DNA from: a virus
IMG/VR virus record: IMGVR_UViG_3300028549_000092
Span: 1 to 64,000 of that record
Length of the DNA: 64,000 nucleotides
Reading direction: 5' to 3' (one strand)
The notes under the pieces are model-generated. The model was given only the letters and a program-made list of their open reading frames with translations. It was not told the DNA's origin and made no database searches. Both the position numbers and the translations under genes were made by a program. Below, piece after piece: positions 4,082 to 63,994 of the stretch (the first letter of the stretch is position 1; the number at the start of each line of letters is the position of its first letter).

Positions 4082-4870
4082 ATGATATACTCATGGGTTA
4101 CTTTCGATGAAGTTATCACTATTATTGAAAACACTTATCATGTTAAGAGTAGTGATTATATTTACAGACTTCCTCAATGGATTAATGAAGCGCTTAGTGA
4201 ACTAAAGGTTAGGCTACCATATGAACCAGCTGTAAGTAGTATTAAAGTTACTAATAGTAAGTTTCAGTTACCTAAATCTATTAAGAACATTGCACTAGTA
4301 GTTTACAAAGGTTGTATTGTAGATAGACTTAATAGTAATATTCATGTTGGTAATCAGAGTATAAAAGATTATTCAGGTCAACTTTCAGTAATGGCTTATG
4401 ATCAGATTAAAACTGTTGATGCCAATGGTGATATTAAAGTTAGGATCAAAGAGTTTGAACTAGCTATTAACAACGGTAGTAGTAAACATAGTTATTCAAC
4501 TCTTAATAACAAGTTTTGCGAAACTACCGTTCCGGATAACGAACGTGTTGATCTGTATTATACTAGACTTCCTCATAGTTTTGATCCTATTAGTAATCAA
4601 GAAATACCTATGATTCCTGATGGTGAACTTACTAAGCAGTCAATAGTCTGGTATGTGCTTCGCTCTCTTCTCTACGGGGGATACGTCCATCCAACTTTAA
4701 GCCTTGCTAGTGGTACTGAAGAATTGAATCCTGCTAGAATGTTTGAAAGATATGCTGATAGAGCTAGAGGTGAACTATTAGATTTCGATAATGCTACTAG
4801 AGAACGTTTAAAAGATATCAATACTACTTTTATTCATGATATTAGTAGATATTCACGATTTAAAGGTTGA
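4082..4870 (+). CDS. Hypothetical virion-module protein (262 aa)
   Basis: ORF tightly packed between its neighbours. Contains dispersed-motif copy 4662-4684 in antisense. Confidence 0.7.
   Translation: MIYSWVTFDEVITIIENTYHVKSSDYIYRLPQWINEALSELKVRLPYEPAVSSIKVTNSKFQLPKSIKNIALVVYKGCIVDRLNSNIHVGNQSIKDYSGQLSVMAYDQIKTVDANGDIKVRIKEFELAINNGSSKHSYSTLNNKFCETTVPDNERVDLYYTRLPHSFDPISNQEIPMIPDGELTKQSIVWYVLRSLLYGGYVHPTLSLASGTEELNPARMFERYADRARGELLDFDNATRERLKDINTTFIHDISRYSRFKG
4662..4684 (-). repeat. Dispersed motif copy (reverse orientation)
   Basis: Plus strand reads gctctcttctctacgggggatac. Inside the 262-aa ORF, read as LRSLLYGGY. Confidence 0.75.
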
Positions 4871-4873
4871 GTT

Positions 4874-7800
4874 ATGAAAGTTACTAAAGGTGAATGGTTA
4901 GACGGTAATACCGTTAATAAAGATAACGGTAGTTTGGAATATGCTAGAAATCTAGCTGTTAGTGATGATTTTACTAGTAGTCGTAACGCATTTGGCTTCG
5001 ATCCTAAACTGGTTTTGGCTGGTGAGGGTGAGACGCTAGAGTTGGTTGGGAAAGAGGTTACAAATAAGGGGGTTGCCATTTTTGGTAACCTCTATGCAGG
5101 TCAAAGGTATGCGGTGATATATTTGTACGACCCCGAAAAGAACGTTGCTAAAACGGTACTTAAAACGTCGAAATTTAACTGGTCATTAGACAATCCTATT
5201 CGATCTAGCCATACTTTTAACTATAAAGGTGATCTAGTTCTCATTTGGTGTGACGGTACTACTCCAACTAGTAATCGTCCTATGATTCTAAACGTTGAAA
5301 CTCCTGATATAATACTAAATACTAATAAAGAGATTGTAGGAAATGAAGAATGTCTATATCTATTCAATACTGCCAATAGTATTGATTTTAGATATTCTGT
5401 TAGTAAGAATGGAATACTTAAAGGTGGTGCTTATTATATTACAGCTAGTTATGAACTTTCTGATGAAAGTGTTACTAATTGGAGTGTTATACAAGGCCCT
5501 ATATATATTGGTAACCGTACTGATAAAAACAGTAATAGTTCTATAATTTTAAACTTTAAGAATCTTAATACTAATTATAGATATATAAAAATAGGTATAA
5601 TTCTTAAATCTGAAGGTATAACTACTGGTAAGATTTATAAAAAGTTTAGTGTTAGTTCTAATGATTTAACAATAGCTGTCAGTGATAATACTGGTGATGA
5701 AACCGATATTAGAGAGTTTACAGTTCGTAGAGCTGTTTACGATAAAATAAACGATGTTATAATAACTAATAATAAAGCTTATATAGCATCTCCTTTAGAA
5801 TATAACAATAAACTAGATTATCAAAAGTTTGCTAATGATATTAAAGTTGGATATAGATATGTAACTCCTACTCTAACTCCTAACAATCCAGTTGTTACAA
5901 GTCCTACTGGAGGTTTAGATTATAAAGATTTGATACATGGTGGACTAGGTTTAATAGATAACAATACTTCATATCCTGCTGGTAGTGATTCAGATCAGTA
6001 TTACAATGGTAGTAATCAAGGTTTTATGCATGGTGAAGTACATGCTTATTATATATTCTTTGTACTGAAACATTCAGGTCATATAGTTCCTGCTTTTCAT
6101 ATACCAGGTAGAAGTGCTATTGAAAATATTCATCCAAGTGAAGTTGCACATTGTCATAATCCTAGTTTAAATGGGTTTCATACTAACTCTTTTGGTAAGA
6201 CTATTGGTAAGTCTTTTGGATGTGAGCAGATACCTATTATGTATTTTCAAAATGATCTTGCGGTAGCTTCCCCTGTAGTAGGGAAGGTAGAGGTTACTTT
6301 CACTATTGGACTTATTAAGTGTATCATACAATTCAACACTTTTAATGATTTCAATAGTTTTAATCTTGCTAATGCAACTACTGTTAATCAGAATCTTTGG
6401 AATAACTTTAGTATATATATTGAAAATAAGTTTGTCATTATTAAATATACTAATATTAATCAAGTTCAAGAAGTTACTCCAATAACTATTGATATAGTAT
6501 TTAATGTTAATACTCCACAAGCAGTTAATGGAAATAAGTATTTTGTTAAACTGTTTGATAAAAAATGGATGTTGCATGGTGGTGGTTATACTCATAAAGA
6601 ATACCTTTCTTATTGGGAGAACACTAATGAACTTTATCCAGAAGACGATGAAACTTATTTCCCTGTTGGAAATGTTAGACATCATAGATTTCCTCTAATG
6701 GCCAATTCTTATAAAGATGATGTTGTACTAGGTAAAGGTGTTGATCTATTAAAACCTTATTTTGATAATATATATATCCCACAAGAACTTTTAAATGAGA
6801 TTAGTCATATTGGTATTGCACAAGCTAAGCGTACTGCTATAAATCGTACTGTTTGGGGACAGAGTCCGATTCATGATATAACTCTACAAGGGGATGTTGA
6901 AGATAATGGTAATCTAACTACTGATAACATTCAAGTGGCTACTCGTAATTGGGATTATCTATATGGTCAATCTATTATAAATAATAAAAGTTGGTATCCT
7001 AATAAAAAGGATATAGCCAGTATGCTTAGTTATACTGTAGATCTTAAATACATTACTCCTAAGAATGGATTTAATGCTATGTTTAGAGGTCTCTATAAAA
7101 CTAAATTTTTAGATATTATTTACTCTGAGAGTAATATTGCTCTAACACATCTTATACCGGAGTATATAGAATATATTGATTACTGTGCTAACTATGGTCT
7201 TTTAAGTACTAAGTTGAAAGCTATTGTAGGAAGTTTTTCTAAGACTAAACTTGATGCGGGTTTAAAGCCTTATTACAAGAACCCTTATTATAAAGGTGTT
7301 ATAGAAGTACTCATATCTAAATATATACCTAATAACTCCGTTGTCCCTTTAGATTATAAAGATAGCTATATAGCTAACAATACTGGTGATTCTTTTGTAT
7401 ATATAGAGAGTGCTTCTGCTGATAAAACTCCGAATAGTGATAAATCAGGGTGGAGGTCTAATAGTGATAATTTAATGAGTGCTACTTATGAAGATGATTT
7501 TACAATAGACAATGATAAAGGTAGAGTTACTAGAGAATTATATAGGTTCAAACCTGCTAGACTTAGTCCTTATAATAGTTTGGACAGTACTACATTAAGT
7601 AGTACAAAACCTGTTGGTTGTAAAATTGTATTGGCTACTGGTTATAGTAAAAAGGACAATGTTTATTATGATTTTACTAATCAACCTTTAACAGTCATAG
7701 CGATAAAGCCTATAAAGATTGCAGGTTATCATTCAATAGGTAAAGATGAAGATATTATAATAGGTGATACATTTAAAAATGTTAACGATAGTATTACACA

Positions 7801-17500: not shown

Positions 17501-20500
17501 AGATGAAATCTCAAATATAAATACTAATGTTGTTACTCTAGTTGGAGAACTTCATAAAATTAGTAAAACTACAACTAAAAAAACAGATACTGACAATACT
17601 AAACCTGTTAGTCAAACTTCCGATGAAAACTTAGTTAAACTTTTAGATGCAGCTTTTGAAGCTGATCCTAAAGGTACTGTGATAGCTATGTTTAACAGAC
17701 TTAGTAGTAATAACGATAAAGATGAAACTACTACTACAGAAACTATCGACACTGTATCAGAAATATCTAATACAGCTAGAACTACAAATCTCGACGATGC
17801 TATGGACGGAGCTAGTCGTGCTCGTATTACTGAACTGTTATTTAATAATGAAGCTGGTAATGGGTATTTAGCTAAATTAATGACTAATGATGTAAAGGAC
17901 TTTACAAATCCTATAGACGTTATCGGTTATCTTGAAACTATCCTAAACAATGGAGAGAAACTTGATAAGCAACAATTTGCTGAACTTTTTACACCTTACT
18001 ACCAATACGTTTTTAATAACTTTGATAATAAGGTTGCTAATGATCTTTTCGATAATCAACTTACTTTCCCTAACTACGAATCTAATGAAGTTCTTTATCA
18101 AGATTATCTTAACCCTTTCATTGTCGACAGTCTTGATAATGCTCCTGACGAAATCATAGTTTTAGATAAAGCTGATCAAGTTAAACAAAAGACGCCTTGG
18201 GCTAAAGTAACTACTAATTACACAGAAGCTAACGGTGCTATATTAAGTGTTACAGGTGCAACTATGAACAACATCAATACGGTATATTCTGGAGATACTG
18301 TTAATAGTGGAGCTGTTCTAGTCATGACCATTGACAACGAGAAACCCAATTTTGCTATAACTAAACAACTTGATCTAAACAGTAGAAATATTACTACTAC
18401 TGTAATTAGTAATGAAGATGTGTTAGCTAAAGTACGAGCTAATGATTGGGAGAACATTACAGAAGAGGAAATAGTTAACATGCCTATTAAGGTTAGTGAT
18501 AGTGGTGGTAATGAACTTGGTCACCTTCACAATCCTGCTTGGTTGGATGAAAATAGATCTACTTTTGATAGTTCTGTCAATACTAATGAAGGTATGGCTA
18601 AAGCTAAACGTAATCTATTTGAATATAAACTTGCGGTTGTTATACACGCTGCTAATCACAATGGTGCTCCCATTCGAACTAAAGTAGAATTTAGTAATTC
18701 AGGTTTTATAACTAAGAACTCTAAGACCAAAAGAGTATATAAGTTAGCTAAACATACCATTAGAAACGATAAGACTGTATTTGCTGTTGCTAAGACTAGT
18801 AGTAAAGGAGTGTCGCTGTTTACCAGTAAAGGATCGGAATTTAATAGCGAAAACCTGCTAAATAAGAACACCAATTTTATTAAAGGTATTACTTATGCCG
18901 TTAGCCCCGTTGATGCCACCAGCATAGATGGCAAGGTAACCTATAAGTATATAGCCCTACCTTGTAAAAGCCTACGGTTCGGACAATCTAACCTTGCTAC
19001 GAATGGGAAAACTGGTATCGGAACGCTACTTGCTGACACCATTACAAAGGCTCTCACGTTAAGCATCCGCTTACGTAGTGGCATCAAATTGAGTGAGGTA
19101 GACAAATCTATAACCGATCAATTTGAGGCTCTAGGATTCGACCTATCGAACGAAAAGCAGGTTTCGGACTACGTTAGTGGGCTAACTTTCGCAAGGTCTG
19201 ATTCTCGTGATCTGTTTAAGACTATTAGAGATATATATCTAAGTCCTAATCATAGTAGACATGATGAGGTTTCTAATGGTCTTACGATGATTAATGTTAC
19301 ACCTAAAACTGTTCAATTTGCTCAAACTGGTAAGTTTGGATTTAAGATTACTACTATTACTATGTATGCCGAAGGTGCTAAGTTCTATACTAGAACTTAT
19401 GGCATAAGCGATCTTAAAGAAACTACTACTGAAAAGGAACATAAAGAACATAGTATAGGTATGAAAGATTCTAATTGGGAATCTGAACTACGTAATGTTA
19501 TAATGGATTCTTATATTAGAACCAATGGTAAACTTCTAAATACTAGTGGTACATTTTCTACCCCTCTTGTAGAACTTGATGAAAATGGTGCCATAACAGG
19601 TGTCAAACTTAGTAAAGACTATGATACTTACAATGATTTTCTTAAAGAGAATCTTGCAACAGACTTTACTGATGTAGCAGATGCTACCGGTAAATTTCAT
19701 AGTACCGCTTTTAGAGCTATTATCATTAGTGAAGAAGTTCTTAAAAAGAACTTTGCTAAACAGAATAAGAAAACTAATCTTTCTGAGATTGCAGATACCA
19801 TTATACAACATAATTCTGCTAGGACTATGGTAAAGGTTACTAGAGCTGGTAAATCTTTCCAACTTGGCTACTTTTGTTCGGTTGATGCCGAAGAAGGTCT
19901 ATTCAGTAACTTTGATACTAGTAGTTTTAAAGACAATGATACTTTTAAAATTGCTCACGATAGAGCTTTTGAAGTTATATCTATTGTCAATAGTAATGTT
20001 AAACAATACAATGCTAAAAACAATGGTGATCTTAAACTTGTTAACATTCAAGGTAATATACTGATCTATAAGTCTGGTGATAAGACTTTCTCTGTAGATT
20101 TAAACCTTGTTCACAATCCTAACAACTCGTTTAATGATACTCTTGCTAAAGAAGTTTTACAAGGTGTTGCTAAACTTAAAACTACAGATAATGTACAAGT
20201 CATACTTACAGATGGTTATGTTCAATTTATGGATAAACCTCTTATTGAAGATGAGAAGCAACTAATACTTGAGGTAGATTCCCCTGTAGAAAAGAGGGAA
20301 GAGCCTACTGTAAACACCGTTGTCAGCGATGACATTACTCTTGACGAAGATACTCTAAATCTATTTGCAGATCTTAAATCTATAGTTGATAATAACTTTG
20401 GAGATAGTTCTGAATTTAGTAATACTAGTGTAAAAGAGAGTGTAGAGATTCTTGCTAAAGAGCAACTTCTAAACGTTGTTGACGATGAATCTAAACCTGT

Positions 20501-23500
20501 AGTATATGAATCTCGTAATGAGGTTGATGCTGCTAAACGTAGGGTGCTTAGACAACTAGACACTAAAGATTTCAATGTTATAATAGAAAACAGCGAAGTC
20601 TTAGGTAACATTGTTTACAATCTTAAGATCATAGCTAACGATAAAAAGTCTAATTTTGTTATTGACGAACATACTTTAGCACTTGTTGAAAATGCTCTTC
20701 AAACTAATGGTATATTGAAAGACGTTAGAAGTGTTACTCAAAGCGATCTTGTAAATTGGCTAAGTAACGTTGCATACGATAAACTTGCAGGAGATATCCA
20801 CGGTAGGTTTACTATCAATGAAATACTTAGTGATCCAAAAGCTTTAATCACTACCAGACTTGCTGAATTTAAAGCTAAGATTTCTAAGTTTGACAGTGTC
20901 ATAGCTTCCATAGAAGCTGATGTTAAACGTAAAGTTGCTACTAGCATTGTTGATCCTGTACAACGTAAAGCTGTTATAGATGCTAATGTAAATTTTGTGT
21001 TAGCTACTAACAATCTTACTGATGGTCTAAATACTAGAAATAGACTTAATGTTATTTCTAAAGAGATGCAATTGTCTCTTGATAACTTTGATGTTATAGC
21101 TAAACTTGTAGAACGAGATTTGGCTAGTATGGGTATGATCGATGTTAATCAAATTAAACGCGAGCAGGATCTTCCCTCTTTACTACAGGGGAATCTAGCA
21201 GAAGCATCCAATAGCAATATTGATACCAGTATAGAGGAAGATGCAGAAACAGAGGTTAAAGAAGATACGTCTCACTATAATTATGATACAAATCTTTCTA
21301 TTAATCACAAGACTACTGCTAGTAAAGAACTTAAAAGGTTTTTTAAAGGTATTGTAAAACTTAATGCTAACGGTAGTATTGCTAAGAACATCTTTGGTGA
21401 AAATTCATACGTTAATTATAATGACGTAATGGAAGATTTGTTTAGTATTCTCGCTGGTACTCCTAGAACATTTGAACAAATGCTCGGTATCATTAGAAAG
21501 AATATTGACAATAAACCATATCTAAAGAATGTTTATGATAAACTTATGGAAGAGTATGAGGATGATTACTCTACTATTCCTGCTAAGTTTACAAAGACTA
21601 TGCAAAAGCATGAAGTTGTTATGGACTCTCTGTTAGTTAAACGTACTAAGAAAGGTTTGTTTTCTACTAGTATAAAGTCTAATAAAAGTAGTACTATTAG
21701 TAACATTATGAATCTATGGCAGAATGGGTTTATCAATACTAATTTTGTTATGCCAGTTGTTTCGGATAGTTCTGAACTATTTCTTAATGACAATTTACTA
21801 AGAGATTACGTTGAAAAATATGCTAGTTTAAATACTAGTAATGTACTTAGTGAAGTTAATTATTCTGACAAGAATGCTTACGTGTTTGTTACCAAGCTTA
21901 TTAAGAGTGGTAATAATATACTTTACACTCTGTTTGGTTTAGATAGTATAAGTGATTACAATTCTATCATGGAAGCTAAAGAGACTATTACAGAAAGTGA
22001 TCTTAAAATCTTAATTAAGAAACAAGGTATTAGTTTAGAAACTTATAATAATATAGTTGCTATTGCTACCGATCCTATTAAACTTGCAAATATTAAACGT
22101 ATTTATGCTGGTACTTTCCTAGAGGAACTCGGTATCAGTGTTAATCAAAATGCATTGGTTAGTTATCTTAAAGATACAAATGTTAAGAGTCTATTGGATG
22201 ATTTTAGAACTAAACATCTTAAAGCTTTAATAGATAACAATAAAAGTATAGATCTTACTGATGTTAATGTGTTTGCTCCTATTTATACTATACTAAAGAA
22301 TATTGCTAAACATGAAGAACGTTATGCTATAGTTCAAAAAGAAAGTTCGTATCGTGATCAAGCTGGTAAACTAGTTCAAACGTATGCTCAGTTTAAGTAT
22401 ATGTTTGAGAGACTTAGTGCTATTAAAGAAAATGATACTTACCGTGAAGCTCTTATCAATACAACTATGAATAAGGTTCATCCTTTTATGAGAACTTTGT
22501 CTAGTAAGATTGGTAATTTAGAACTTACTTATGCAGACTCTTTTGTAAATAAGTATATTAGTAATACGGAGACTAAGAAACTAGCAGAAGCTAATCCTTC
22601 TGAACTAGAACTTTTTAAACTGTATGACTATATGAACGGTGGTTCTGATTTTGGTAACTTTCTTTATCCTACTCTTTCGGATGGTAAGGTTATTATGAAA
22701 CTAAACTACGAACGTAGAGTTTATGGTATAAATCGTAAAGATGGTAAATTCACTAACGATCTAGTTAAAGATTATTTTGAATCTACCATACTTCCTGAAC
22801 TTACTCGTATAGAAGAGTTCATTAGAAAAAACCCTAATATAAATGTTAAAGGTTTTGATAAAGGTGCTACTAGACTAGTTCTAAGTCCTACTATGGATGC
22901 TTATATCAATACTGGTGAAAACAGTTTAGTTAATCAATTCAAAAACGATCCTAGTAAAACTCATATTATAACTTTGACTGAAGAGGTTAAAGATATACTT
23001 ATGAAAGAGGTTAACGAAGAAGTTACCGATAAGATTAAGAATCTTGCGGACTTAGGTATATTTACTAAAGTTCCTCTAAGTAGTGTTGTTGAAAAGGATG
23101 GTGAGACTACTGAAGTTAAAACTAAAGTAGATAATGGAGATGTTATTATAGATGGATTCGTTTATAAGTATGACATATCTACAATAGATACTAAGTTTCA
23201 TGCTATGTTAGAAGCTAAAGGTGCTAATAACGTTATCGGTTTAGTTACCAATTATGTTGTTAGTTACAGAATGGCACATAGTAATAATGTTGCACTGTTT
23301 CTTGGTGATCCTGCAACGTTTTGGAAAAAGGATCATAATAATACTAACGATAACATTAGTAAACGTCTAGCTGGTGATAGAGGTCCTGGTGAACTTACTA
23401 TGGATCATGCTGATCCTAAAGCTATCTATAATCAATTTACCATTGCGGATGTTGAGAAAGGTGTTGTTTCTGTAGCTAAGACTTTTATAGATTCTGTAGA

Positions 23501-28760: not shown

Positions 28761-31700
28761 ATGGCTTATTGTTCAAATGGTATTTCAAGAGCTGGGGTCT
28801 CCGCTAAAAACGGAGAGCCTAGTGCTCTTTATCAAAGTCTACTTAAGTATTGTAGTAATGATAAAGACGCAGCTGTTGCTATATATGTATATGCACACAG
28901 TGCTGATTTCAAGTCTAAATTTGGTGATTGGGAAACAACCCCTGTAGAAAAGAGGGTAGATGCCAATGGAGAACCTTTAATAAAAGAAGTTATAGATGTT
29001 CTAAGAGCTAACTATGTCAAACAAGTTACTGATGAGTTTAGTAGTACTACTGCTAAAGAAGCTGATGACTTTTTTGACGACGGTCTTAAAATGTTTCAAG
29101 ATTCTACTCCACAAGAAGGTATTGCCAATGATAGTGTCGATACTTTTAACGATGATTTGTTAGGTATGTTTGGAGGTAATTCTGATACAGAAGTGCCACT
29201 TCACCAGACTATCAATGATTTCGCTGATGACGACATTGACGACAGTACTCTAAAAGCTAAAGCTAAACTTAATATGTTAACCCCTCAACAAACTGATGAT
29301 TTGCTTAGAGGTGGTAAGTATAGAAGTAATATTCGTATGTCTATTAAACGTATTGAAAGTACTCTTACAGCTTTAAAATATATAAATAATAATGACGATC
29401 TTGAACTAGTAAATAGATTAACTCTCAGTCTTAATAAAATGCGGACTGAGGAAAAGATTGCTAGTAGTAATTCTTTGATGAGTATTAAAACTCTTGAAAC
29501 AAAGGCTTTACAAATGATCAAACGTGCAGAGAATCTTATAAAGAGTCAAGATGTTACTCTTAAAGATTTCGTAGAAGTTAGAGATAGTTTGGAAGCTTAT
29601 GTTGACATATCCAAGTACTTTTTAAGTCCTACGGAAAAACTTGAGGGAGCTTTTATGCAAGCTAATCCAGATGAAGGTACTATAGGCTTTTCTGTAATAG
29701 AAGCTAGAGCTAAGAACTGTAGATCTGAAATGCTGGATATGTCTATGGAAGCTATGAATGATAAAATAAATAATAATAAAATTGAAGGTGGTATGACTTA
29801 TGTTTACAATATTAAACATGACGTCGACACTCTTAAAGACAGTAATATTGTTTGGGCACATGGTTTTAACATTGGTCGTACTGATTTCAAACTTCTACAA
29901 TATGTAGAAAAGGATTATCATAAACATATCAATAGTATGAATCGTCGTACTGATGATATAAATAAGCAAATAGATGAACTTAGTAAAGATATAAAATTTG
30001 ATGAATTTAGGGAATCTTATGTAGATGGCGGTAATACTGGAAACATTGTTCACCAGTATAGTCCTGAATATAGAGATGAATATGCTATGATTCGTAGAAA
30101 ACTTAGAGGTATCTATAAAGATCAAGTTAGCTTTTCCCATAAGTTTGGAGAATGGTTTAAAGATAACCATATCATACTTGATCCTAGAATCCTATTTACA
30201 AACAAAGTAAATGTATTTGATAAAGATGCCATAGGTCTTACTGACGAAGAAATAGATGCTGCTAAAGATGCTTTGATTCTAAAAGTTACAGAACTAGTTG
30301 GAGCTGAAGTTTGTGCTACTATGATTAAAAAAGTAGAAGATCAAATTGATCTATACATGGATCGTAGAGATAGTAAAGTTTTGGAACTTACATCTTTACT
30401 TAATGGTAATAAGATTAGTAAAGATACTTATGTTCTAAAACTTAAAACGTTTGATGCTCATAACTCTCCTTATTTACTAGCTGATAATGTTATTACTGGT
30501 AGACCTACAATAGCTGGAGATGTATCTCTTTTCAGTAACTTTGAAAAAGACCTTACAGCTATACCTCGTAAATACCTACTTGATAAAGGTGGTAACGATA
30601 CTAAATTTGAGACTGGTTGGTATAATAACCAATATGATAAATTAATGAGTAATCCTAAGAACAAAGCTTTCTATGATTTCTATATTGATTTAATGGAAGA
30701 ACTTAATAGTATCGTTCCTACTCACAACGGTAATACTTTAGATTCTAATTATGTTATGTTTGTTAAGAAAACTTTCATAGATATAGTTAAAGAAAATGGG
30801 TTTAAATCTACTGTTGTTACAGATAAACTTAAAGAGTTTTATAGTAAAAGTGATGGTGCTGTAGGTAAGATTAATCCTGTTACTGGTAAGATTACTAGAG
30901 AACTAGGTGTAGCATCTATTGATGCTCATATGGCAGCTATTAAACTTAAACTAGATATTAGAAAAGAAGAATTTCTTGCCGAATATGGTATCGAACCTAG
31001 TGCTGAAGATATTCAACAATTCATTAGAGAATCTAAGATTGAACTTGCTCAAGAAGCATCTTTTGATCTAGCTTCTATACTTAAAACTCATAATTACATT
31101 GCCAACTATTATATTCAAAAGGCGGTAATAGATGATGAAGTTAGAGCTGTAGATCAAATAATAAATAGTTTAAAAGAGCCTATTATACGTAAAGATGGTA
31201 GTACAGGTTTCTATAAACATGAGGTTGATAGTTTTAAGAACATGAAGATGCAATGGAACTATTGGCAAGATCAGTTTTACGGAACTCATAATAAAGATTC
31301 TGTTACAGATAAGAAAGTATATACTAAATCAGAACAAGAAATTGTTGATAGGCTTAATAAGATTTTAGAAGGTTATGATAGTGACTACTTCAATGGTAAG
31401 TTAGATGTTTTAGATTATGAAACTAAGAAAGATCGTATCAATACTCTTAAACAACGTTTAGGTACTAATCAGTCTTATGATCAGATGGGTAGAACTCTAC
31501 TACAAATTACTCAGTTTAAAGGTATGGGTTTCAATGCTATTTCTGCTGTAGCAAATGATACCTTTGGTTATATCAGTAATGTTATAGAAGCTAATGATGG
31601 TCGTATCTTTAATAAGAAAGAATTAATGATGGGCTATAAGATTACCGCAGGTAATATAGTTAGATTTTGGAGTAATAGGAAAATAAGTCCTAATGCTTCT

Positions 31701-34638: not shown

Positions 34639-35877
34639 TTACTTCTTAACTTTGTCAGCAAGACTTTTGGCAACGTCTAAAGGATTGCCAATTATTTTAC
34701 TAGTCATAGTTTTAGCACCACCATTAAAAACACCTTGAATCGAACCTGTAGTAACACCATCTCCACAAAGTTTCTCATCCGTTTCATCAACCTGAATGGT
34801 CTCTAAGACACCTCCAACAGTTGTAATAGTAGTAGGGAGCACTCCCCTCCTTTCTACGGGGGAAATCAGATGTTGCAGAAGAAGTTTACCACTAATACTA
34901 ACGTTATTGTAAACAAATACGGAATCAGGATTAGCGCGAAGTGTATCTTTAATCAGTTCTTCACCCATAACAGATATCATTTCACAGATATCAAATCTAG
35001 GATCAAATTGAATATGGATACGAGTATCGGCTTCTCCCATTTTAGTAATATCACCATCAATACCGCTACTACCAAAACCCTTAGCTCCACGATCTTTAAT
35101 AATTTGAGCTAGTTCGAAGGTATCGTTGTTAACAGGTTGAACAGATACTCTAATAGGTATCACGTATTGAAAAACGACTTGAGCAATAGATTGCTTATCT
35201 TTAATAACAATGTTACTACGACCACAGTTTTTAACGATAATGCTAGCATCACCAGTATATCCGTTGTCAATAGTTCCGGGAGCATTTGTTAATTCAAGTT
35301 CAGTTTTGAGACTAATACCAGACTTAGGTCTAACACTAGCTTCAATAGCATATGGTAGAAGATAATGAACTCCTGTAGGAATCTTTAATTTAACTCCAGG
35401 CCCTATTGTTATAAACAGACCTTCTTGACCTGTAGCAATGGTAACACCTTTAGGTAATTCATATACACCGGTCTTAACCATCAAGTTTAATAGTTCAAGA
35501 TTACAATACATATCCCACCCACTATCATTAGGATTAGCTCTAGTAGGAATTATACCCGGACAAGTAGGGTTTAAATAAAACCTAACAGCTTCTTGATTGA
35601 AAGCCGGAAGATATTTAAGATGATTAGTAATTCGAATACGTTGCTGTCTAATATCTTCTTTAAGATATCGAAGTGTTAAATCAATATCTAAATGAGTAGA
35701 CAAAGCTTTATAGACATCTTTAATGTCTCTACCAATGAACTCATAATGAGATGTCAACTCTTCTTTAGTGTCTTGTTTAAATTTATCAAACAGACCGCTA
35801 AGTTTAGTAAACTTAGTCTTAATGAATACCATGTACACTATCGTTACGAGTAGCGCAATTCCTAACAAAATTTCCAT
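34639..35877 (-). CDS. dut: dUTPase fusion protein (N-terminal TM helix + dUTPase core + about 130-aa C-terminal extension)
   Basis: dUTPase motifs SGWDMY, RPKSG, GTIDNGYTGD, IAQVVF and RGAKGFGSSG. The N-terminus is ILLGIALLVTIVYMVFI. Confidence 0.85.
   Translation of the reverse strand: MEILLGIALLVTIVYMVFIKTKFTKLSGLFDKFKQDTKEELTSHYEFIGRDIKDVYKALSTHLDIDLTLRYLKEDIRQQRIRITNHLKYLPAFNQEAVRFYLNPTCPGIIPTRANPNDSGWDMYCNLELLNLMVKTGVYELPKGVTIATGQEGLFITIGPGVKLKIPTGVHYLLPYAIEASVRPKSGISLKTELELTNAPGTIDNGYTGDASIIVKNCGRSNIVIKDKQSIAQVVFQYVIPIRVSVQPVNNDTFELAQIIKDRGAKGFGSSGIDGDITKMGEADTRIHIQFDPRFDICEMISVMGEELIKDTLRANPDSVFVYNNVSISGKLLLQHLISPVERRGVLPTTITTVGGVLETIQVDETDEKLCGDGVTTGSIQGVFNGGAKTMTSKIIGNPLDVAKSLADKVKK
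34844..34869 (-). repeat. Dispersed motif copy (reverse orientation)
   Basis: Plus strand reads cccctcctttctacgggggaaatcag. Sense to the dUTPase gene, read as ISPVERRG. Confidence 0.85.
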
Positions 35878-38193: not shown

Positions 38194-38218
38194 TAGATTC
38201 CCCCGTAGTGAAGAGGGT
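38194..38218 (+). repeat. Dispersed motif copy (intergenic)
   Basis: tagattcccccgtagtgaagagggt. Lies between the DUF932 start and the Gp157-like stop. Its 3' end forms one arm of hairpin 38213-38240. Confidence 0.9.
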
Positions 38219-38240
38219 AACGATCATTACCGCTACCCTC
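38213..38240 (-). terminator. Hairpin after the Gp157-like gene (shares an arm with a dispersed-motif copy)
   Basis: gagggta...taccctc. Confidence 0.5.
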
Positions 38241-38252
38241 CTGCTATCAAGT

Positions 38253-48777: not shown

Positions 48778-48802
48778 CCCTCCTTACTAAAGGGGGAGGT
48801 TC
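48778..48802 (-). repeat. Dispersed motif copy (reverse orientation, intergenic, more diverged)
   Basis: Plus strand reads ccctccttactaaagggggaggttc. About 30 nt upstream of the 417-aa gene ATG and co-oriented with it. Confidence 0.65.
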
Positions 48803-48820: not shown

Positions 48821-50959
48821 TTAATCAAACAGACCACCAGTATGAAACATGTCCTGCCTAGCTCTCTTATCTTTAGCTGTGTTTTTAGTCTTACCGGTAA
48901 CAATACCGTAAGCCAGTTTTTCAGCAAGCTTAATATAGAAAGGATAGTTAATGTTGTAATTACTAAGATCTTCATAATGAATATAGTTGTTGAATATAGT
49001 AACTCCTGTACCAACTTGAAGATTAGACTTCTTTGAAACATTAGTAAACTTAGGATCTTCAACTTTGAAGAGAATAGTATTATCTTTAGAGCAATAAAAT
49101 CTAACTTGTCGCTGAATAGCGGTCATTATAGATTCCCCTGTAGAAGAGACGGAGTTGATCATTGGCACAAACTTACGATCCATATTCTGCGTAGTACAGA
49201 AAAGATATATGTCACGTTCATTCTTTATAGTATCTGATATCGGTACACCATGAATTAGGTATTCTTCTACAGATTTAGCCACGATTGGCATACTAAAGCC
49301 CTTCTTTAAATCTTCCGTATGAAGATACTGGTTAAGGTCTCCTTTACGTTTAATATCAAGAAACCCGTCCTTTTTACGCTTAACAGTAATGTAATTATTA
49401 ACATCACGTCTAGCGTAAGTAATGTAATCAGTATACTCAAGATCAAGGTTGACATCCTTTTCCCATTGTTTACAAGTTTTATAATAAATATCTTCTTTAT
49501 CTTTAGGTATAATACAAACAATACCATCTGTATTAGCAGACACGTTTTGAATACCTACTAGATATAGTCTTTCGATAAGCATGATTAGGCTAAGTTGACC
49601 ATTAAGAGTAATAATGAAAATACACATAAGGTCGTATAGAAAACTATACTCGAAGCCGAACTTACCGAACATACCAACGTTAATAGTGATCTTAAGACTG
49701 TCAGCTTTAGTTTTATCACCAGCTTCTTTAGCTTCAATACGTTCATCTTTCATAACGCTAGTAATAACTAAGAAAGCTTCTCCGTCTAAATGGGCAGGAG
49801 CAACCTTATTGTTAATACATAAACTAGGATAATAACTAGCAACGTCAGCATCTCTAACACTACCTTCAGCACCTTCTTTAAATATTCTAGCATCATCTTT
49901 TGAATGTAGACCTCCAGACCCAAACTTATACGTTATGTTGTTAAACTTAAAAGATATTTCAATGTCCTTTGTAGTAGTAACACTCATGTTCTTGAACTTA
50001 TCAAGTAGACCTTGACATTCAGGAGTAACAAACGTAATGTTAGGATTAAGCATAGGCCCAACCTTCATGCTTTTACGATAAGTTCTCAGATTCTTATATT
50101 CATGATAAGGTATACCAGTGTATTCACTGTAATACTTACTAATGAACAGATCTGCAATCTTACTGTCAGATGCACAAAGAGTATTTAGACCAAACTTCTC
50201 GTTAATATCAAAACGAAGTTGAATCTTTTCAATAAGAACTCTAAATAGATCACAACAACCATATACATCGTTAGCATTGTAAACTCTAATTTCAGACACG
50301 TAATCTTTAATCACAATTCTATCCCAATCTTCTATTAAAAGTAGATTGCGATCATCTAAATTGGGATTGTAGAAAAACCTATCAAGTTTACTTATAGGAG
50401 GCATCTTATATTCAAGAATCTTATACCAACAAATATTAATAAGTGTTTGTTTAAGACTCTTATGAACCTTATCAAGAGCAGGAATCTTTTGTAGATCAAT
50501 GCTATAAAAGTTCATGTGAAAGTTATTATAAACTTTATATTGCCAATCTTCATAAAGCTGGTAACGTTCACTATTAACGATCAGTTTAGAAAGATCGTAA
50601 AGTTTACGATTTAGTTTATCAAGTTTAATATTATTCATAACTTCAACACCTATACATTTAAGCATAAGGTTGTCATAACCAAGAATATTAAAACCTGATA
50701 GGTAGTCACCATCTGAAACATATTCAAGTAGAGCATACGTATCGTCTACAATATAACCTCCAACAGAACTTATTTCAAATACTCTTTTAGGAACAGCTTC
50801 GATAGTCTTAATCTTAACCAGTTCACTAACTAGAAGCTTTCCCTTTTTATCGTATAGCGGCATAATAGCCGAAAGATAATCTGCAACGTCTACAAAAGTA
50901 AGCACAGCATAATTAGGGAAAGTTTCAATATCGTACATCTTAACTAAATTCATCTTCAA
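48821..50959 (-). CDS. Family B DNA polymerase
   Basis: ExoI YDIETFPN, motif A DADVASYYPSL, motif B KITINVGMFGKFG, motif C SANTDGIVC. Confidence 0.9.
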   Translation of the reverse strand: MKMNLVKMYDIETFPNYAVLTFVDVADYLSAIMPLYDKKGKLLVSELVKIKTIEAVPKRVFEISSVGGYIVDDTYALLEYVSDGDYLSGFNILGYDNLMLKCIGVEVMNNIKLDKLNRKLYDLSKLIVNSERYQLYEDWQYKVYNNFHMNFYSIDLQKIPALDKVHKSLKQTLINICWYKILEYKMPPISKLDRFFYNPNLDDRNLLLIEDWDRIVIKDYVSEIRVYNANDVYGCCDLFRVLIEKIQLRFDINEKFGLNTLCASDSKIADLFISKYYSEYTGIPYHEYKNLRTYRKSMKVGPMLNPNITFVTPECQGLLDKFKNMSVTTTKDIEISFKFNNITYKFGSGGLHSKDDARIFKEGAEGSVRDADVASYYPSLCINNKVAPAHLDGEAFLVITSVMKDERIEAKEAGDKTKADSLKITINVGMFGKFGFEYSFLYDLMCIFIITLNGQLSLIMLIERLYLVGIQNVSANTDGIVCIIPKDKEDIYYKTCKQWEKDVNLDLEYTDYITYARRDVNNYITVKRKKDGFLDIKRKGDLNQYLHTEDLKKGFSMPIVAKSVEEYLIHGVPISDTIKNERDIYLFCTTQNMDRKFVPMINSVSSTGESIMTAIQRQVRFYCSKDNTILFKVEDPKFTNVSKKSNLQVGTGVTIFNNYIHYEDLSNYNINYPFYIKLAEKLAYGIVTGKTKNTAKDKRARQDMFHTGGLFD
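49129..49153 (+). repeat. Dispersed motif copy
   Basis: tagattcccctgtagaagagacgga. Antisense inside PolB, read as SSTGES. Confidence 0.85.
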
Positions 50960-55064: not shown

Positions 55065-55088
55065 TCCTCCTTTCTACAGGGGAATCTA
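55065..55088 (-). repeat. Dispersed motif copy (reverse orientation, intergenic)
   Basis: Plus strand reads tcctcctttctacaggggaatcta. About 30 nt upstream of the helicase ATG and co-oriented with it. Confidence 0.9.
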
Positions 55089-61984: not shown

Positions 61985-61995
61985 AACTGTAAGAG

Positions 61996-62493: not shown

Positions 62494-62503
62494 CAACAGG
62501 TTA

Positions 62504-62522
62504 AAGGGGAATTTCACCCCTT
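62504..62522 (-). terminator. Small hairpin after gene 62549..
   Basis: aagggg-aatttca-cccctt. The T-tail is weak. Confidence 0.35.
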
Positions 62523-62548
62523 CAATTCTTATCTACAATAAGGGCAAG

Positions 62549-63208
62549 TTAGTTAGCAGGTTCGTAGCCAACTGGAAGTTCAAAGGCTTTAGCAAAACCA
62601 GTTTCAGTTTTATATAGCTCACCTTCAATGAGCAAAGCACGAGCCGTAGCCATTGGCATAAAATCGGCGCTAGTAGCAACGATCTTAATAACACCTTCAC
62701 TTGGATCGATAAACCTTGCGCCAGTCATTCCAGGGACATAATCCATAAGATAAGAATGGCTAACAGGCACAAAATTAGCTAGGTTAACCATAACAATAGA
62801 CCCAATTTCTTTGTCTGTTTGGCTAACAAGTCTAGCAGTTCTTAACTGTTTCATTTCCTCACCAAGCGCATTAATAGTCTTAACACGATACTGAAGTTTA
62901 ACCTTAAAGGTACTTTCCGAACCAGTGTAAGCATTACCTTTGGTTTCTCTACTTTCAAGAACAACAGCAACCATGTCAGTCTTTAGAACTTTAACACCTT
63001 TGGTTATAGCATTAAAGTATGCACGAGTACCAATTTCCAAACCTGTAACATCGTTAACAATTGGATCATTAGATGCTGCTGGTGTTGGATCAACATCGTT
63101 AACAATTGGATCAACATTGTTTACACCTGTTACAGTCTCAACATTACCAGTTAAACCGTTTTCAATAACATCTCCAACTTGTGGAGCGTTTGCGCCTTCT
63201 TTAGCCAT
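62549..63208 (-). CDS. Hypothetical protein (219 aa from ATG 63208; track ORF extends to 63484)
   Basis: MAKEGANAPQVGD... contains an internal repeat DPIVNDV x2. The upstream extension is low-complexity AT-rich sequence. Confidence 0.6.
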   Translation of the reverse strand: MAKEGANAPQVGDVIENGLTGNVETVTGVNNVDPIVNDVDPTPAASNDPIVNDVTGLEIGTRAYFNAITKGVKVLKTDMVAVVLESRETKGNAYTGSESTFKVKLQYRVKTINALGEEMKQLRTARLVSQTDKEIGSIVMVNLANFVPVSHSYLMDYVPGMTGARFIDPSEGVIKIVATSADFMPMATARALLIEGELYKTETGFAKAFELPVGYEPAN

Positions 63209-63551
63209 TTCTTTTGTTTTTAGAGTTCGATTAATTCTAAGTTGAATATCCAAATTAAATGTAATGGGGGTATTCAATCTATCAACATAAGGTAGGGGGT
63301 TATGGTCAGCTGGTTCACGATCACCTTTACCGACTATTAAAATTTTTATTATTTTAATTTTCATCTTAACTTTGATCATCAATACTTCTAAACCATCATT
63401 CTCCAAGATCATTACAATCTCATCCATCTTCACAACATCTATATTAATCATTACAATCATTACAAAATCACCTTTGCTGAACATCTATATTAGATATTTA
63501 ATCATTGATAATAGCATTATGATTAACAGTTATCTATATTTCACCAGTGGT

Positions 63552-63689
63552 TTAAAGATCATCTTCAACTCTATAATCATCTACATTAGAAGCTTTAACA
63601 GTCTTATGATAATCAGTAAAATCATTAGTTAGCAAATTAACAGTAATTAGAGGTTTATCTATTAGATAATTAGCGCTAACAAGTTCCAT
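63552..63689 (-). CDS. Possible small protein (45 aa), not in ORF track
   Basis: Hand translation: MELVSANYLIDKPLITVNLLTNDFTDYHKTVKASNVDDYRVEDDL. Starts 12 nt after the upstream stop. Confidence 0.35.
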   Translation of the reverse strand: MELVSANYLIDKPLITVNLLTNDFTDYHKTVKASNVDDYRVEDDL

Positions 63690-63700
63690 TATATAATTAG

Positions 63701-63994
63701 CTAAATTGAGCACATTGGCATTATTATAAACAGAGTGTTAAGATCAAGATGGAAAAGTATAGGCATAACAATGCTAGATCGTATATAATAAACTCTATTA
63801 AGTCTATCTACGATTGTTGGTAAATGAAGCACATAATGCTTATTGGCAGATTCCCCCGTAGTAAGGAGGAATGAAGCTAGTTGATGTTTACTATCATTAG
63901 CAACATTATTGATAACTTTAGGAGTATCTTTAATGACAATAGAAGCATCGGCAATCATCTCCCTCTTCACTACGGGGGAATCAAGGATTGACAT
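63701..63994 (-). CDS. Hypothetical ORF (97 aa or longer; frame open to window edge) containing an inverted pair of the dispersed motif
   Basis: The frame has no stop between 63994 and base 64000, so the start may lie outside the window. Confidence 0.4.
   Translation of the reverse strand: MSILDSPVVKREMIADASIVIKDTPKVINNVANDSKHQLASFLLTTGESANKHYVLHLPTIVDRLNRVYYIRSSIVMPILFHLDLNTLFIIMPMCSI
63847..63870 (+). repeat. Dispersed motif copy (left member of tight inverted pair)
   Basis: cagattcccccgtagtaaggagga. Confidence 0.9.
63960..63984 (-). repeat. Dispersed motif copy (right member of tight inverted pair)
   Basis: Plus strand reads tccctcttcactacgggggaatcaa. Confidence 0.9.

What the first reader, a model, noticed from the sequence alone, without database searches (positions are those of the whole stretch)
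4662..63984. Dispersed 22-25 nt motif TAGATTCCCCYGTAGWRAAGRGGG, at least 12 copies on both strands, imposed on unrelated ORFs
By eye I find 12 strong copies.
- Written orientation: 6264, 20275, 28936, 38194, 49129, 63847.
- Reverse orientation: 4662, 21173, 34844, 48778, 55065, 63960.

Three copies are intergenic and nine lie inside ORFs. The ORFs include the giant RNAP protein (two copies), two other large virion proteins, PolB and the dUTPase.

The five copies in sense orientation are all read in one frame, as ASPVVGK, DSPVEKR, TTPVEKR, ISPVERR and DSPVVKR. A second sense frame contains TAG. The four antisense copies use three different frames: LLYGGY, SLLQGN, and STGES twice.

Conservation of the same nucleotides in intergenic DNA, in antisense and across frames shows that the selected unit is DNA or RNA, not a peptide. 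Orientation is not tied to gene direction: 7 copies are co-directional and 5 are anti-directional. Orientation nearly alternates along the window (- + + - + - + - + - + -).

I cannot match this to a known element class. Candidates are:
- a promoter, pause or terminator signal for the phage's own RNA polymerase;
- a binding site for a phage DNA-binding protein;
- site-specific nick or recombination sites;
- remnants of a tiny in-frame-inserting palindromic element, analogous to Rickettsia palindromic elements.
Basis: seen in the sequence. Interest (0 to 1): 0.85.

Follow-up and report, generated by a model that had tools for sequence, protein, structure and literature searches.

The report
Conserved 22-nt signal written into phage genes
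A crAss-like phage carries 13 copies of one 22-letter DNA word on both strands, mostly written into unrelated genes with rare codons and kept unchanged in a sister phage, so it is a selected nucleotide signal whose reader and function are unknown.

Summary
All 12 reported copies exist, and a profile scan finds them and nothing weaker. A 13th copy lies outside the window, in an assembled genome of about 88 kb.

The conserved unit is about 22 nt: GATTCCCCYGTAGWRARGAGGG.

It is a nucleotide signal, not a peptide. Copies use very rare codons (TCC 2%, GGG 5%, CTC 4%). Among 20,000 synonymous recodings per coding copy, none reached the observed match for six of seven copies, and 2 did for the seventh.

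It is not an inserted mini-element:
- In PolB and in tail ring protein 1 the copy sits in place with no extra codons. In the ring protein it overlies the most conserved peptide.
- There are no target-site duplications and no decayed copies.

A sister lineage (about 83% DNA identity) has a copy at all 10 testable orthologous sites. Core divergence is 8% against 21% in the flanks (P = 4e-7). The invariant positions changed 0 times in 100.

All four window copies with C at position 4 have T in the sister lineage.

Two copies form the outer stem of a 140-nt hairpin in a 1.2-kb non-coding region between the early and late gene blocks.

Relatives at about 50% protein identity, GTDB genomes, JGI metagenomes and GenBank phages lack the motif.

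Best reading: dispersed recognition sites for one lineage-specific trans-acting reader. The function remains unknown.

The parts
4663..4684 (-). Copy 1. Antisense inside tail ring protein 1 (ORF 4082-4870), read as SLLYGGY.
   Evidence: Matrix score 36 bits. nhmmer E = 5e-5. It lies on the family's most conserved peptide, with G200 invariant and no insertion. It uses the rare codons CGC, CTC, GGG and GTC. 0 of 20,000 synonymous recodings reach its score.
6266..6287 (+). Copy 2. Sense inside the 1473-aa virion protein ORF 4874-9295 (ASPVVGK).
   Evidence: 49 bits. 0 of 20,000 recodings reach its score. It uses the rare codons TCC and GGG.
20277..20298 (+). Copy 3. Sense inside the 4724-aa giant virion protein (residues 1901-1912, DSPVEKR). 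This is the best copy.
   Evidence: 58 bits. It lies in a region with no detectable homologues. It is conserved in the sister lineage at L061 1514-1549, where the window holding it is 92% identical and the two neighbouring windows are 69% and 67%.
21174..21195 (-). Copy 4. Antisense inside the giant protein (residues 2197-2208, SLLQGNL), 910 nt from copy 3 and inverted relative to it.
   Evidence: 52 bits. It is the paralogue most similar to copy 3, at 33 of 38 positions. It is conserved in the sister lineage at L061 2404-2438. The two arms diverged independently in that lineage.
28935..28956 (+). Copy 5. Sense in the N-terminus of the 1350-aa ORF 28761-32813 (TTPVEKR).
   Evidence: 41 bits. 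Its orthologue in the sister lineage reads TTCCCC where the window reads AACCCC.
34845..34866 (-). Copy 6. Sense in the C-terminal extension of the dUTPase ORF 34639-35877 (ISPVERR).
   Evidence: 45 bits. The codons TCC, GTA, GAA, AGG and AGG are kept in the sister lineage, although the surrounding protein is only 65% identical and the flanks are 39% diverged.
38196..38217 (+). Copy 7. Non-coding, in the 72-nt spacer between the Gam-like/Gp157 gene and the DUF932 gene. It is oriented against transcription.
   Evidence: 46 bits. It is conserved in five contigs of the sister lineage.
48778..48799 (-). Copy 8. Non-coding, in the 73-nt spacer after PolB and before the 417-aa ORF. It is co-directional with the genes.
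   Evidence: nhmmer E = 2.5e-6. It is conserved in L054 and L059.
49131..49152 (+). Copy 9. Antisense inside PolB (residues about 603-611, SSTGESI).
   Evidence: 41.5 bits. Twelve homologues have the same length there, bar 1 residue. It is conserved in L059 with G at position 15, matching the consensus.
55065..55086 (-). Copy 10. Non-coding, in the 50-nt spacer before the Dda-like helicase gene. The TAG just 5' of the 22-nt core (55086-55088) is the stop codon of ORF 55086-55529.
   Evidence: 48 bits. It is conserved in L058 6900-6924. Distant relatives have almost no spacer at this junction: the two genes overlap by 1 nt in one and are 2 nt apart in the other.
63849..63870 (+). Copy 11. Non-coding. 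It forms one arm of the 140-nt hairpin.
   Evidence: 43 bits. It is conserved in L064, L065 and L066.
63961..63982 (-). Copy 12. Non-coding. It forms the other arm of the hairpin.
   Evidence: 44 bits. It is conserved in L064, L065 and L066.
63846..63984 (.). A 140-nt imperfect palindrome whose outer stem (about 25 bp) is made of copies 11 and 12. It sits in a conserved island of about 260 nt (63758 to about 64018) within a 1.2-kb non-coding region at the divergent early/late switch.
   Evidence: RNA fold -53.7 kcal/mol, z = -6.2. Inverted repeat of 21 nt at 90% complementarity. Only this island aligns with the sister lineage, at 84%. Stem changes from the window to the sister lineage are C-G to U-A, G.U to G-C, and one added pair. 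No ORF longer than 53 aa lies within the sister lineage's version of the region.

Best explanation
The motif is a recognition sequence of about 22 nt, asymmetric, for one lineage-specific trans-acting reader.

The sequence has been fitted in place at 13 positions of the roughly 88-kb genome, on both strands. Where non-coding DNA exists it sits there (5 copies). Two of these form an inverted pair in the control region between the early and late gene blocks. The other 8 copies are accommodated inside genes through rare codons and tolerated amino-acid changes.

In kind it works like the dispersed operator or centromere-like sites of other mobile genomes: many copies of one site, read by one factor, for a genome-wide task such as control of replication, transcription or DNA handling.

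What is shown:
- the copies are real;
- the constraint is at nucleotide level;
- the copies arose in place;
- the core has been under purifying selection since the split from a sister lineage;
- one position changed in parallel across copies.

For: 1. Family size. The family is discrete: 13 copies and no intermediates.

2. Nucleotide-level constraint.
- Codons used at 1-9% frequency are kept at the copies.
- No synonymous recoding out of 20,000 reaches the observed score for 6 of 7 coding copies, and 2 of 20,000 do for the seventh.

3. In place, not inserted.
- The PolB copy adds at most 1 residue relative to 12 homologues.
- The ring-protein copy overlies WYVLRSLLYGGYVHP, which matches WFVLRNLLYGGYSHP in a homologue of 29% identity.
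- The best matches sit where the protein is unconstrained or the DNA is non-coding. The weakest sit in conserved proteins.

4. Selection.
- The sister lineage, at about 83% nucleotide identity, keeps a copy at 10 of 10 testable sites, with none extra and none lost.
- Core differences are 16 of 200 against 594 of 2810 in the flanks (P = 4e-7).
- Positions CCCC, GTAG, G13 and A14 changed 0 times in 100.

5. One common reader. Every window copy with C at position 4 has T in the sister lineage, which has T at 10 of 10 copies. Position -5 changed A to T in three copies.

6. DNA rather than RNA.
- The strand split is 6 + and 7 -.
- Coding copies are 4 sense and 4 antisense, and non-coding copies occur in both orientations.
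- The weak internal hairpin shows no covariation and no significant stability.

7. Non-coding enrichment. 4-5 of 13 copies lie in the roughly 6% of the genome that is non-coding (P about 0.005 when 4 are counted).
Against: - No candidate reader gene was found. About 60 ORFs were scanned with Pfam or PHROGs, and they show only standard replication and virion functions plus many unknowns.
- Each site carries far more information than is needed to specify a site in 88 kb. About 18 bits would suffice, and the matrix scores are 36-58 bits. That is more typical of phage-polymerase promoters or of base-pairing recognition than of ordinary operators.
- The site is not dyad-symmetric, unlike most parS or operator sites.
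- The parallel change at position 4 could also arise from gene conversion or from C-to-T mutation pressure at a free position.
- Relatives at about 50% protein identity show neither this motif nor an obvious substitute, so nothing is known about how general the system is.
Confidence: 0.4

Rival explanations
1. The motif is a promoter, or a sequence-specific pause or termination signal, for the phage's own virion RNA polymerase. It would be analogous to the 23-bp promoters of T7-like phages, which are long, near-identical, often lie inside upstream genes, and co-evolve with their polymerase.
For: - The information content is high and the length is about 22 nt.
- Copies changed in parallel between lineages, as with T7 versus T3 promoters (own knowledge).
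- The 3' half is purine-rich (GAGGGAAGAG), resembling the initially transcribed GGGAGA or GAAGAG of T7 and SP6 promoters (own knowledge).
- Two copies sit 30-35 nt upstream of start codons, and a face-to-face pair lies in the early/late control region.
- The phage encodes a giant protein with a DFDVD motif.
Against: - Half of the copies point against the genes. Of the three spacer copies directly upstream of genes, two are in one orientation and one is in the other.
- In the model crAss-like phage phi14:2 the early transcripts made by the virion polymerase had no detectable common upstream motif, and middle and late genes use the host polymerase (bioRxiv 10.1101/2020.03.07.982082).
- There is no T-run or stable hairpin for termination.
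Confidence: 0.2
2. Recognition is by base-pairing. The conserved hairpin at 63846-63984 is a master locus whose transcript contains the motif in both senses. The dispersed copies are its pairing partners, in mRNA or in DNA. This would explain the length, the orientation independence and the lineage-wide co-variation.
For: - The hairpin lies in the only conserved island of a 1.2-kb non-coding region.
- Its two arms changed together from the window to the sister lineage, C-G to U-A.
- In the sister lineage, where the 3' arm carries A opposite position 4, all 10 copies have T. In the window it carries G, and the copies have C or T.
- Most variation inside the core is by transitions.
- phi14:2 makes abundant early non-coding RNAs from long intergenic regions.
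Against: - Testing whether sense copies resemble one arm and antisense copies the other gives p = 0.10.
- Position 9 varies between A and T, which wobble pairing cannot absorb.
- Two antisense copies (21191 and 49135) would give C.A mismatches.
- No bacterial or phage system of this kind is known.
- There is no Rfam match.
- The co-variation of the arms also follows simply from both being motif copies.
Confidence: 0.12
3. The copies are sites of localized single-strand interruptions (nicks) in virion DNA, made by a phage nickase, as in T5, phiKMV-like phages and phage tf.
For: - Those systems use dispersed consensus sequences of 9-20 nt lying inside genes, with co-evolution of nickase and sites, and their function is still unknown (PMC3517423).
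- The phage encodes an ATP-dependent DNA ligase.
Against: In T5, phiKMV-like phages and tf, all sites lie on one strand only. Here the split is 6 + and 7 -. No nickase candidate was found.
Confidence: 0.1
4. The copies are a selfish mobile mini-element (MITE-, RPE- or REP-like) that inserted into genes in frame.
For: - The motif is lineage-specific.
- Three gene spacers are 50-73 nt long and largely filled by the motif, whereas distant relatives have almost no spacer before the helicase gene: a 1-nt overlap in one and 2 nt in the other.
- The 140-nt palindrome with motif ends looks MITE-like.
Against: - There is no insertion in PolB or the ring protein.
- There are no target-site duplications.
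- There are no decayed copies.
- 10 of 10 sites are stable between lineages, with purifying selection on the core.
- No transposase was found.
Confidence: 0.03
5. The copies are target sites of a site-specific recombinase (shufflon or invertase type). The near-alternating orientation would arise because only inversions are tolerated.
For: - 10 of 12 neighbouring copies are inverted relative to each other.
- Short arms (TTCCC and GGGAA) flank an asymmetric centre.
Against: - The window and the sister lineage are collinear across all sites.
- Inverting 20281-21191 would destroy the giant ORF, because the longest antisense ORF there is only 129 aa.
- No recombinase was found.
- The arm symmetry is only 5 nt.
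Confidence: 0.03

Closest known systems
Stoperators of Cluster A mycobacteriophages (L5, Bxb1)
   Same: Tens of copies of one asymmetric site are spread over a whole phage genome and read by one phage protein. The sites co-evolve with their reader between related phages (own knowledge).
   Different: Stoperators are 13 bp, lie mostly between genes, and are oriented with transcription. Here the site is about 22 nt, 8 of 13 copies are inside ORFs, and orientation is independent of transcription.
KorB operators of plasmid RK2 and dispersed sopC centromere sites of phage N15
   Same: About 12 sites (RK2) or 4 sites (N15) are scattered over a 46-60-kb genome, some far from promoters or inside genes, and serve a global regulator or partition protein (own knowledge). 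The number and spacing here are comparable: 13 sites in 88 kb.
   Different: Those sites are short palindromes bound by ParB-family dimers. This motif is asymmetric, and no ParB-like gene was detected.
T7-group phage RNA polymerase promoters
   Same: They are about 23 bp and highly conserved, with 17 copies in 40 kb. Some are embedded in coding sequence, and they co-vary with polymerase specificity. They have a purine-rich start region (own knowledge).
   Different: All T7 promoters point with the genes. Here half point against them. The crAss-type polymerase is unrelated, and no promoter motif is known for it.
Localized nick sites of T5, phiKMV-like phages and tf
   Same: Dispersed consensus sequences lie inside genes, are phage-specific, and have an unknown function.
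   Different: Those sites are confined to one strand. Here both strands carry copies about equally.
DNA uptake sequences (USS and DUS) of Haemophilus and Neisseria
   Same: A nucleotide motif is imposed on many unrelated ORFs in both orientations, in favoured frames and at tolerant peptides, without insertion (own knowledge).
   Different: Those are bacterial, 9-12 nt in the core, present in hundreds to thousands of copies, with a continuum of imperfect copies. Here there are 13 copies and no imperfect ones.
Rickettsia palindromic elements, MITEs and REPINs
   Same: These are short repeats found inside ORFs in frame. The 63846-63984 pair resembles a REPIN-like doublet.
   Different: They are inserted sequences that add residues and show presence/absence polymorphism. 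These copies add none in the two testable proteins and are fixed at 10 of 10 sites.

Membership tests
RPE / MITE (in-frame inserting palindromic element) | A copy adds extra residues relative to orthologues lacking it. | tested here: not met
   PolB gains 1 residue relative to 12 homologues. Ring protein 1 gains 0 residues, and the copy lies on a conserved peptide.
RPE / MITE (in-frame inserting palindromic element) | Target-site duplication and/or terminal inverted repeats. | tested here: not met
   There is no consistent flanking direct repeat. Single copies have only a 5-nt internal dyad.
RPE / MITE (in-frame inserting palindromic element) | Presence/absence polymorphism between close relatives, and decayed copies. 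| tested here: not met
   10 of 10 orthologous sites are occupied in the sister lineage, with none extra. There are no sub-threshold copies.
REP / REPIN with RAYT transposase | A stable imperfect palindrome preceded by GTAG, extragenic, with a RAYT gene in the genome. | tested here: not met
   GTAG lies in the centre, not at the 5' end. The fold is -0.2 to -7 kcal/mol with non-significant z. 8 of 13 copies are intragenic. No HUH or Y1 transposase appeared in the Pfam or PHROGs scans.
CRISPR repeat mimic (solitary repeat unit / RNA anti-CRISPR) | Sequence identity to the repeat of a host CRISPR array. | tested here: not met
   The exact-pattern scan of 185,579 GTDB species genomes gave only 13 single hits in unrelated taxa and no arrays. 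The JGI metagenome scan gave 28 single hits.
Localized nick sites (T5, phiKMV, tf type) | All sites lie on one DNA strand. | tested here: not met
   The split is 6 + and 7 -. The one-strand rule is taken from PMC3517423.
Localized nick sites (T5, phiKMV, tf type) | A physical nick in virion DNA at the consensus. | not testable with these tools
   This needs virion DNA.
Stoperator-type repressor sites | Orientation is coupled to the direction of transcription, and sites are mostly intergenic. | tested here: not met
   Coding copies are 4 sense and 4 antisense, and spacer copies occur in both orientations.
Phage-polymerase promoter (T7-like logic) | Copies are co-directional with downstream genes, and transcripts start at the motif. 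| tested here: inconclusive
   Orientation is mixed. Transcript ends cannot be tested here. No motif is known for crAss-type virion polymerase.
Intrinsic terminator / structured RNA element | A stable hairpin with covariation, and a T-run for terminators. | tested here: not met
   79.8% of cells are paired against 79.5% in shuffles, so there is no excess covariation. The z-scores of single copies are not significant. No Rfam family matches.
Site-specific inversion system (shufflon) | Segments between inverted sites are found in both orientations, and a recombinase gene is present. | tested here: not met
   The window is collinear with the sister lineage across all sites. No recombinase was found.
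Dispersed operator / centromere-like sites (KorB OB, N15 sopC) | A palindromic site bound by a ParB-family protein encoded in the same genome. | tested here: not met
   The motif is asymmetric. No ParB-like domain was found in the scanned ORFs. The resemblance is in logic only.
Peptide motif (protein-level repeat) | Conservation is explained by the amino-acid sequence, with synonymous sites free. | tested here: not met
   Synonymous recoding: 0 of 20,000 reach the observed score for 6 of 7 copies. Three antisense frames and non-coding copies also exist.

The most novel reading that the evidence does not exclude
The 140-nt hairpin in the early/late control region is a master locus. Its transcript, or its extruded DNA, carries the 22-nt word in both senses and recognises the 11 dispersed copies by base-pairing. 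The phage would then run a self-directed, nucleic-acid-guided network over its own genome or transcriptome. The lineage-wide switch of position 4 (C or T in the window, T only in the sister lineage) would be co-evolution of guide and targets.
Probability: 0.12. Interest if true: 0.9.

Novelty: new variant of a known kind. Interest (0 to 1): 0.72.

Why it matters
crAss-like phages are among the most abundant viruses known, and how they control replication and transcription is largely unknown. No promoter is known for their virion RNA polymerase, and no origin or global regulator has been defined.

This finding provides a cis-element that is sharply defined, under demonstrable selection and easy to mutate. 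It has 13 copies in one genome, a conserved paired copy in the control region, and a sister lineage that already supplies a natural specificity variant (position 4).

It is also a clean example of a long nucleotide signal overriding codon usage inside essential genes of a virus, including a conserved structural peptide. This is relevant to gene annotation and to recoding or synthetic-phage design.

Tried and rejected
1. Hairpin or terminator idea. Single copies fold weakly, and there is no covariation.

2. CRISPR-repeat mimic or host REP element. Scans of GTDB genomes, JGI metagenomes and IMG/VR gave only chance single hits plus the phage's own contig. GenBank phages gave chance hits only.

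3. Rfam and tRNA searches found nothing.

4. Homologues of the giant-protein region holding copies 3 and 4: none found, so insertion could not be tested there.

5. Distant relatives with 50-52% PolB identity (L003, L005) have no motif and no obvious substitute repeat. My de novo k-mer searches for lineage-specific motifs in relatives were underpowered, because even the positive control failed.

6. Non-uniform distribution. The 20-kb motif-free late block lost significance once the 13th copy was found. A gap that long is expected about half the time.

7. Strict alternation of orientation weakened from 10 of 11 to 10 of 12 (p about 0.02).

8. 'Sense copies match one hairpin arm, antisense copies the other': p = 0.10.

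9. Long-range pairing of copies 3 and 4. The arms diverged independently in the sister lineage.

10. IS200 or RAYT idea, from GTAG plus a downstream TTAC. The tail is unconstrained, and no HUH gene was found.

11. Literature searches for a described equivalent in crAss-like phages, or for the sequence itself, found nothing relevant.

Orthologues of copies 1, 2 and 13 could therefore not be fetched.

Full report
**What the window is.** The window is most of a crAss-like phage genome.
- ORF 2526-3203 matches CrAss_Ring_2 and ORF 4082-4870 matches CrAss_Ring_1.
- The - strand block from 32.9 to 64.3 kb holds thymidylate synthase, dNMP kinase, dUTPase, a Gam/Gp157-like protein, ligase, primase, a RecT-like protein, family B DNA polymerase, UDG and a Dda-like helicase.
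- The 4724-aa ORF has a single DFDVD motif at residue 3505. It has no Pfam or PDB sequence match, so its identification as the virion RNA polymerase is inferred only.
- The window overlaps IMG/VR contig IMGVR_UViG_3300033562_000275. Joining the two gives 88,240 nt. A public contig of 88,598 nt carries the same proteins.
- GenBank phages have no near match.

- The written consensus with up to 3 mismatches gives 7 hits against 0.00 expected.
- A loose regex finds exactly the 12 reported loci.
- A position matrix built from the copies scores 11 of them at 36-58 bits. Nothing else exceeds 8 bits, and the best of 50 shuffles is 16.
- A gapped profile search over 83.5 kb returns the 12 at E <= 5e-5, and the next hit is at E = 7.
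- Extending to 88,240 nt adds one copy at about 84,084 on the - strand, antisense in a late ORF.
- The family is therefore discrete: 13 copies, 6 on + and 7 on -, with no degenerate members.
- With the 13th copy, neighbouring copies alternate in orientation 10 times out of 12 (p about 0.02). I treat this as suggestive only.

**Nucleic acid, not peptide.**
- The genome has strong codon bias. The copies are built from its rarest codons: TCC is 2% of Ser codons, GGG 5% of Gly, CTC 4% of Leu, CGC 1% and AGG 9% of Arg, and CCC 6% of Pro.
- I re-drew codons for the same peptides from the genome's own codon usage. This reached the observed matrix score in 0 of 20,000 trials for six coding copies and in 2 of 20,000 for the seventh.

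**Not an insertion.** Two coding copies lie in proteins with alignable homologues.
- In PolB, the copy (read as PMINSVSSTGESI) aligns with a segment of the same length, bar one residue, in 12 homologues of 37-52% identity. The conserved glycine is kept.
- In tail ring protein 1, the copy is the antisense of WYVLRSLLYGGYVHP. This is the most conserved stretch of the family: a homologue of 29% identity reads WFVLRNLLYGGYSHP, and G200 is invariant in 15 sequences.
- No length is added in the ring protein. The match to the motif is achieved through codon choice (CGC TCT CTT CTC TAC GGG GGA TAC GTC).
- No flanking direct repeats exist.
- The best copies sit where constraint is lowest. These are the part of the giant protein that has no detectable homologues and the gene spacers. 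The weakest copies sit in conserved proteins.

**Not a structure.**
- The TTCCCC...GGGAA hairpin of single copies folds at -0.2 to -7 kcal/mol, with non-significant z-scores.
- It shows no covariation: 79.8% of cells are paired against 79.5% after shuffling.
- Rfam and tRNA searches are empty.

**Where else does it occur?**
- An exact-pattern scan of IMG/VR found only the phage's own contig.
- The scan of 185,579 GTDB genomes found 13 single hits in unrelated taxa.
- The scan of JGI metagenomes found 28 single hits.
- GenBank phages gave chance hits only.
- The motif is therefore not a host CRISPR repeat or a host repeat element.
- Relatives with 50-52% PolB identity lack it across 22 kb of the replication block. 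They show no comparable dispersed repeat.
- One relative, at 47% identity in a late protein, has two antisense copies of a shorter version, TTCCCCTGTAGGGAAGA. Both are at non-orthologous places. This is a weak hint that the left half of the motif is older.

**The sister lineage.** Cluster look-ups led to contigs from SRR28248374, SRR28248375 and SRR28248376. These are syntenic with the window and about 83% identical in DNA.
- They cover 10 of the 13 sites, and every one carries a copy. None is extra and none is missing.
- Over positions -2 to +17 (numbered from the first C of CCCC) the two lineages differ at 16 of 200 positions. The 150-nt flanks differ at 594 of 2810 positions (P = 4e-7).
- At CCCC, GTAG, G13 and A14 there are 0 changes in 100 positions. 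At the flank rate the chance of this is about 5e-11.
- Positions +18 to +30 differ at 27%, so they are unconstrained. The functional unit is thus about 22 nt: GATTCCCCYGTAGWRARGAGGG.
- Rare codons are kept. In motif-core codons with a conserved residue, 15 of 17 are identical, against a genome-wide 71%.
- In the divergent C-terminus of the dUTPase ORF, and to a lesser extent in the giant protein, the copy is a local peak of conservation.
- The family is therefore older than the split of the two lineages, positionally stable, and under purifying selection.

**Parallel change.**
- All four window copies with C at position 4 (34862, 38200, 63853 and 63978) have T in the sister lineage, which has T at 10 of 10 copies.
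- Position -5 changed A to T in three copies.
- Coordinated change at the same motif position in dispersed copies points to a single common reader, or to gene conversion among copies. C-to-T mutation pressure at a free position cannot be excluded.

**The paired copy.**
- Copies 63853(+) and 63978(-) are the outer 25 bp of a 140-nt imperfect palindrome. Folded as RNA it gives -53.7 kcal/mol with z = -6.2.
- The 103-aa ORF called over it is not conserved. In the sister lineage the 1.2-kb region between the first leftward gene and the first rightward gene has no called gene and no ORF above 53 aa.
- Only about 260 nt around the palindrome align between the lineages, at 84%.
- The stem changed by C-G to U-A, G.U to G-C, and one added pair. 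The inner part diverged.
- So 5 of 13 copies are non-coding, in a genome that is about 94% coding (P about 0.005 when counting only 4).
- The most prominent site is a face-to-face pair in the control region between the early and late blocks.

**Interpretation.** The data show a selected nucleotide signal, fitted in place, and read in a way that does not depend on the direction of transcription.
- I favour dispersed recognition sites for one lineage-specific trans-acting factor acting on DNA (confidence 0.4). In logic it resembles stoperators, the KorB operators of RK2, or the dispersed centromere sites of N15.
- It fails the defining features of each of these: size, symmetry, orientation coupling and a ParB-type reader.
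- No reader gene could be identified.
- The very high information per site is the main weakness. It fits a phage-polymerase promoter or pause signal better (0.2). That reading is weakened by the mixed orientation, and by the reported absence of a common motif upstream of early transcripts in phi14:2.
- It also fits base-pairing with a hairpin-derived nucleic acid (0.12). My test of arm-specific similarity gave only p = 0.10.
- Nick sites (0.1) conflict with the one-strand rule of all known systems.
- A mobile element (0.03) is contradicted by the in-place copies, the missing duplications, and the stable, selected sites.
- Inversion sites (0.03) are contradicted by collinearity with the sister lineage.

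**Verdict.** It is conserved, selected, and overrides codon usage in essential genes. The function remains open, but it is now directly testable.

Noticed in passing
window 63490-64000, continuing to about 64595 (L047 2200-3304): A region of about 1.2 kb between the divergent early (-) and late (+) blocks has no conserved ORF. Only a 260-nt island around the 140-nt palindrome is conserved with the sister lineage. It may be an origin, a switch region or an early non-coding RNA gene, like the highly transcribed long intergenic regions reported for phi14:2.
   Followed up: partly
window 14574-28748: The ORF is 4724 aa, and 4943 aa in the sister lineage. It has one DFDVD motif at residue 3505 and no Pfam or PDB sequence match. 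Residues 1600-2500 found no homologue at all, not even the protein itself, in the word-indexed protein search.
   Followed up: partly
L052 6190-6209 and 11282-11305 (IMGVR_UViG_3300042991_000055): A relative with 47% identity in a late protein has two antisense in-ORF copies of a shortened motif, CCCCTGTAGGG(T)AAGA(A)TATATAG. They are read as SLQGN and TLQGD, the same frame as copy 21191. The left half, TTCCCCTGTAG, may be older than this lineage.
   Followed up: partly
window 63047-63113 (L047 1756-1822): There is a perfect 22-nt direct repeat, AACATCGTTAACAATTGGATCA, occurring twice 45 nt apart inside ORF 62549-63484. A third copy at 73% identity lies 1.1 kb away.
   Followed up: no
window 48821-50959 compared with P0002-P0006: PolB of the 50%-identity relatives carries a C-terminal extension of about 100 aa, acidic and ending in DDLPF, followed by an LPD11-domain gene. 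Both are absent from this phage.
   Followed up: no
L003 3147-4609: The relative's early region encodes several small proteins made of 9-nt-period TGT-NNN-NNN repeats (Cys-x-x arrays).
   Followed up: no
L003 161-3369: A separate intergenic motif, AATAATAGTCAAATGGG, occurs 4 times directly at start codons in this relative.
   Followed up: no
window 34639-35877: The dUTPase ORF is 412 aa here and 441 aa in the sister lineage, and only 65% identical. Its C-terminal extension has diverged strongly, apart from the codons carrying the motif.
   Followed up: partly
window 48821-50959 (P0001 compared with P0271): Two public assemblies of this phage, of 61,672 and 88,598 nt, differ by one PolB residue (F663L). 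At least two near-identical strains have therefore been sampled.
   Followed up: no
window 38218-38245: Next to copy 38200, the motif's GAGGGTA pairs with a downstream TACCCTC to form a 7-bp hairpin (-6.3 kcal/mol as DNA, z = -2.2) in the spacer between the Gam-like gene and the DUF932 gene.
   Followed up: no
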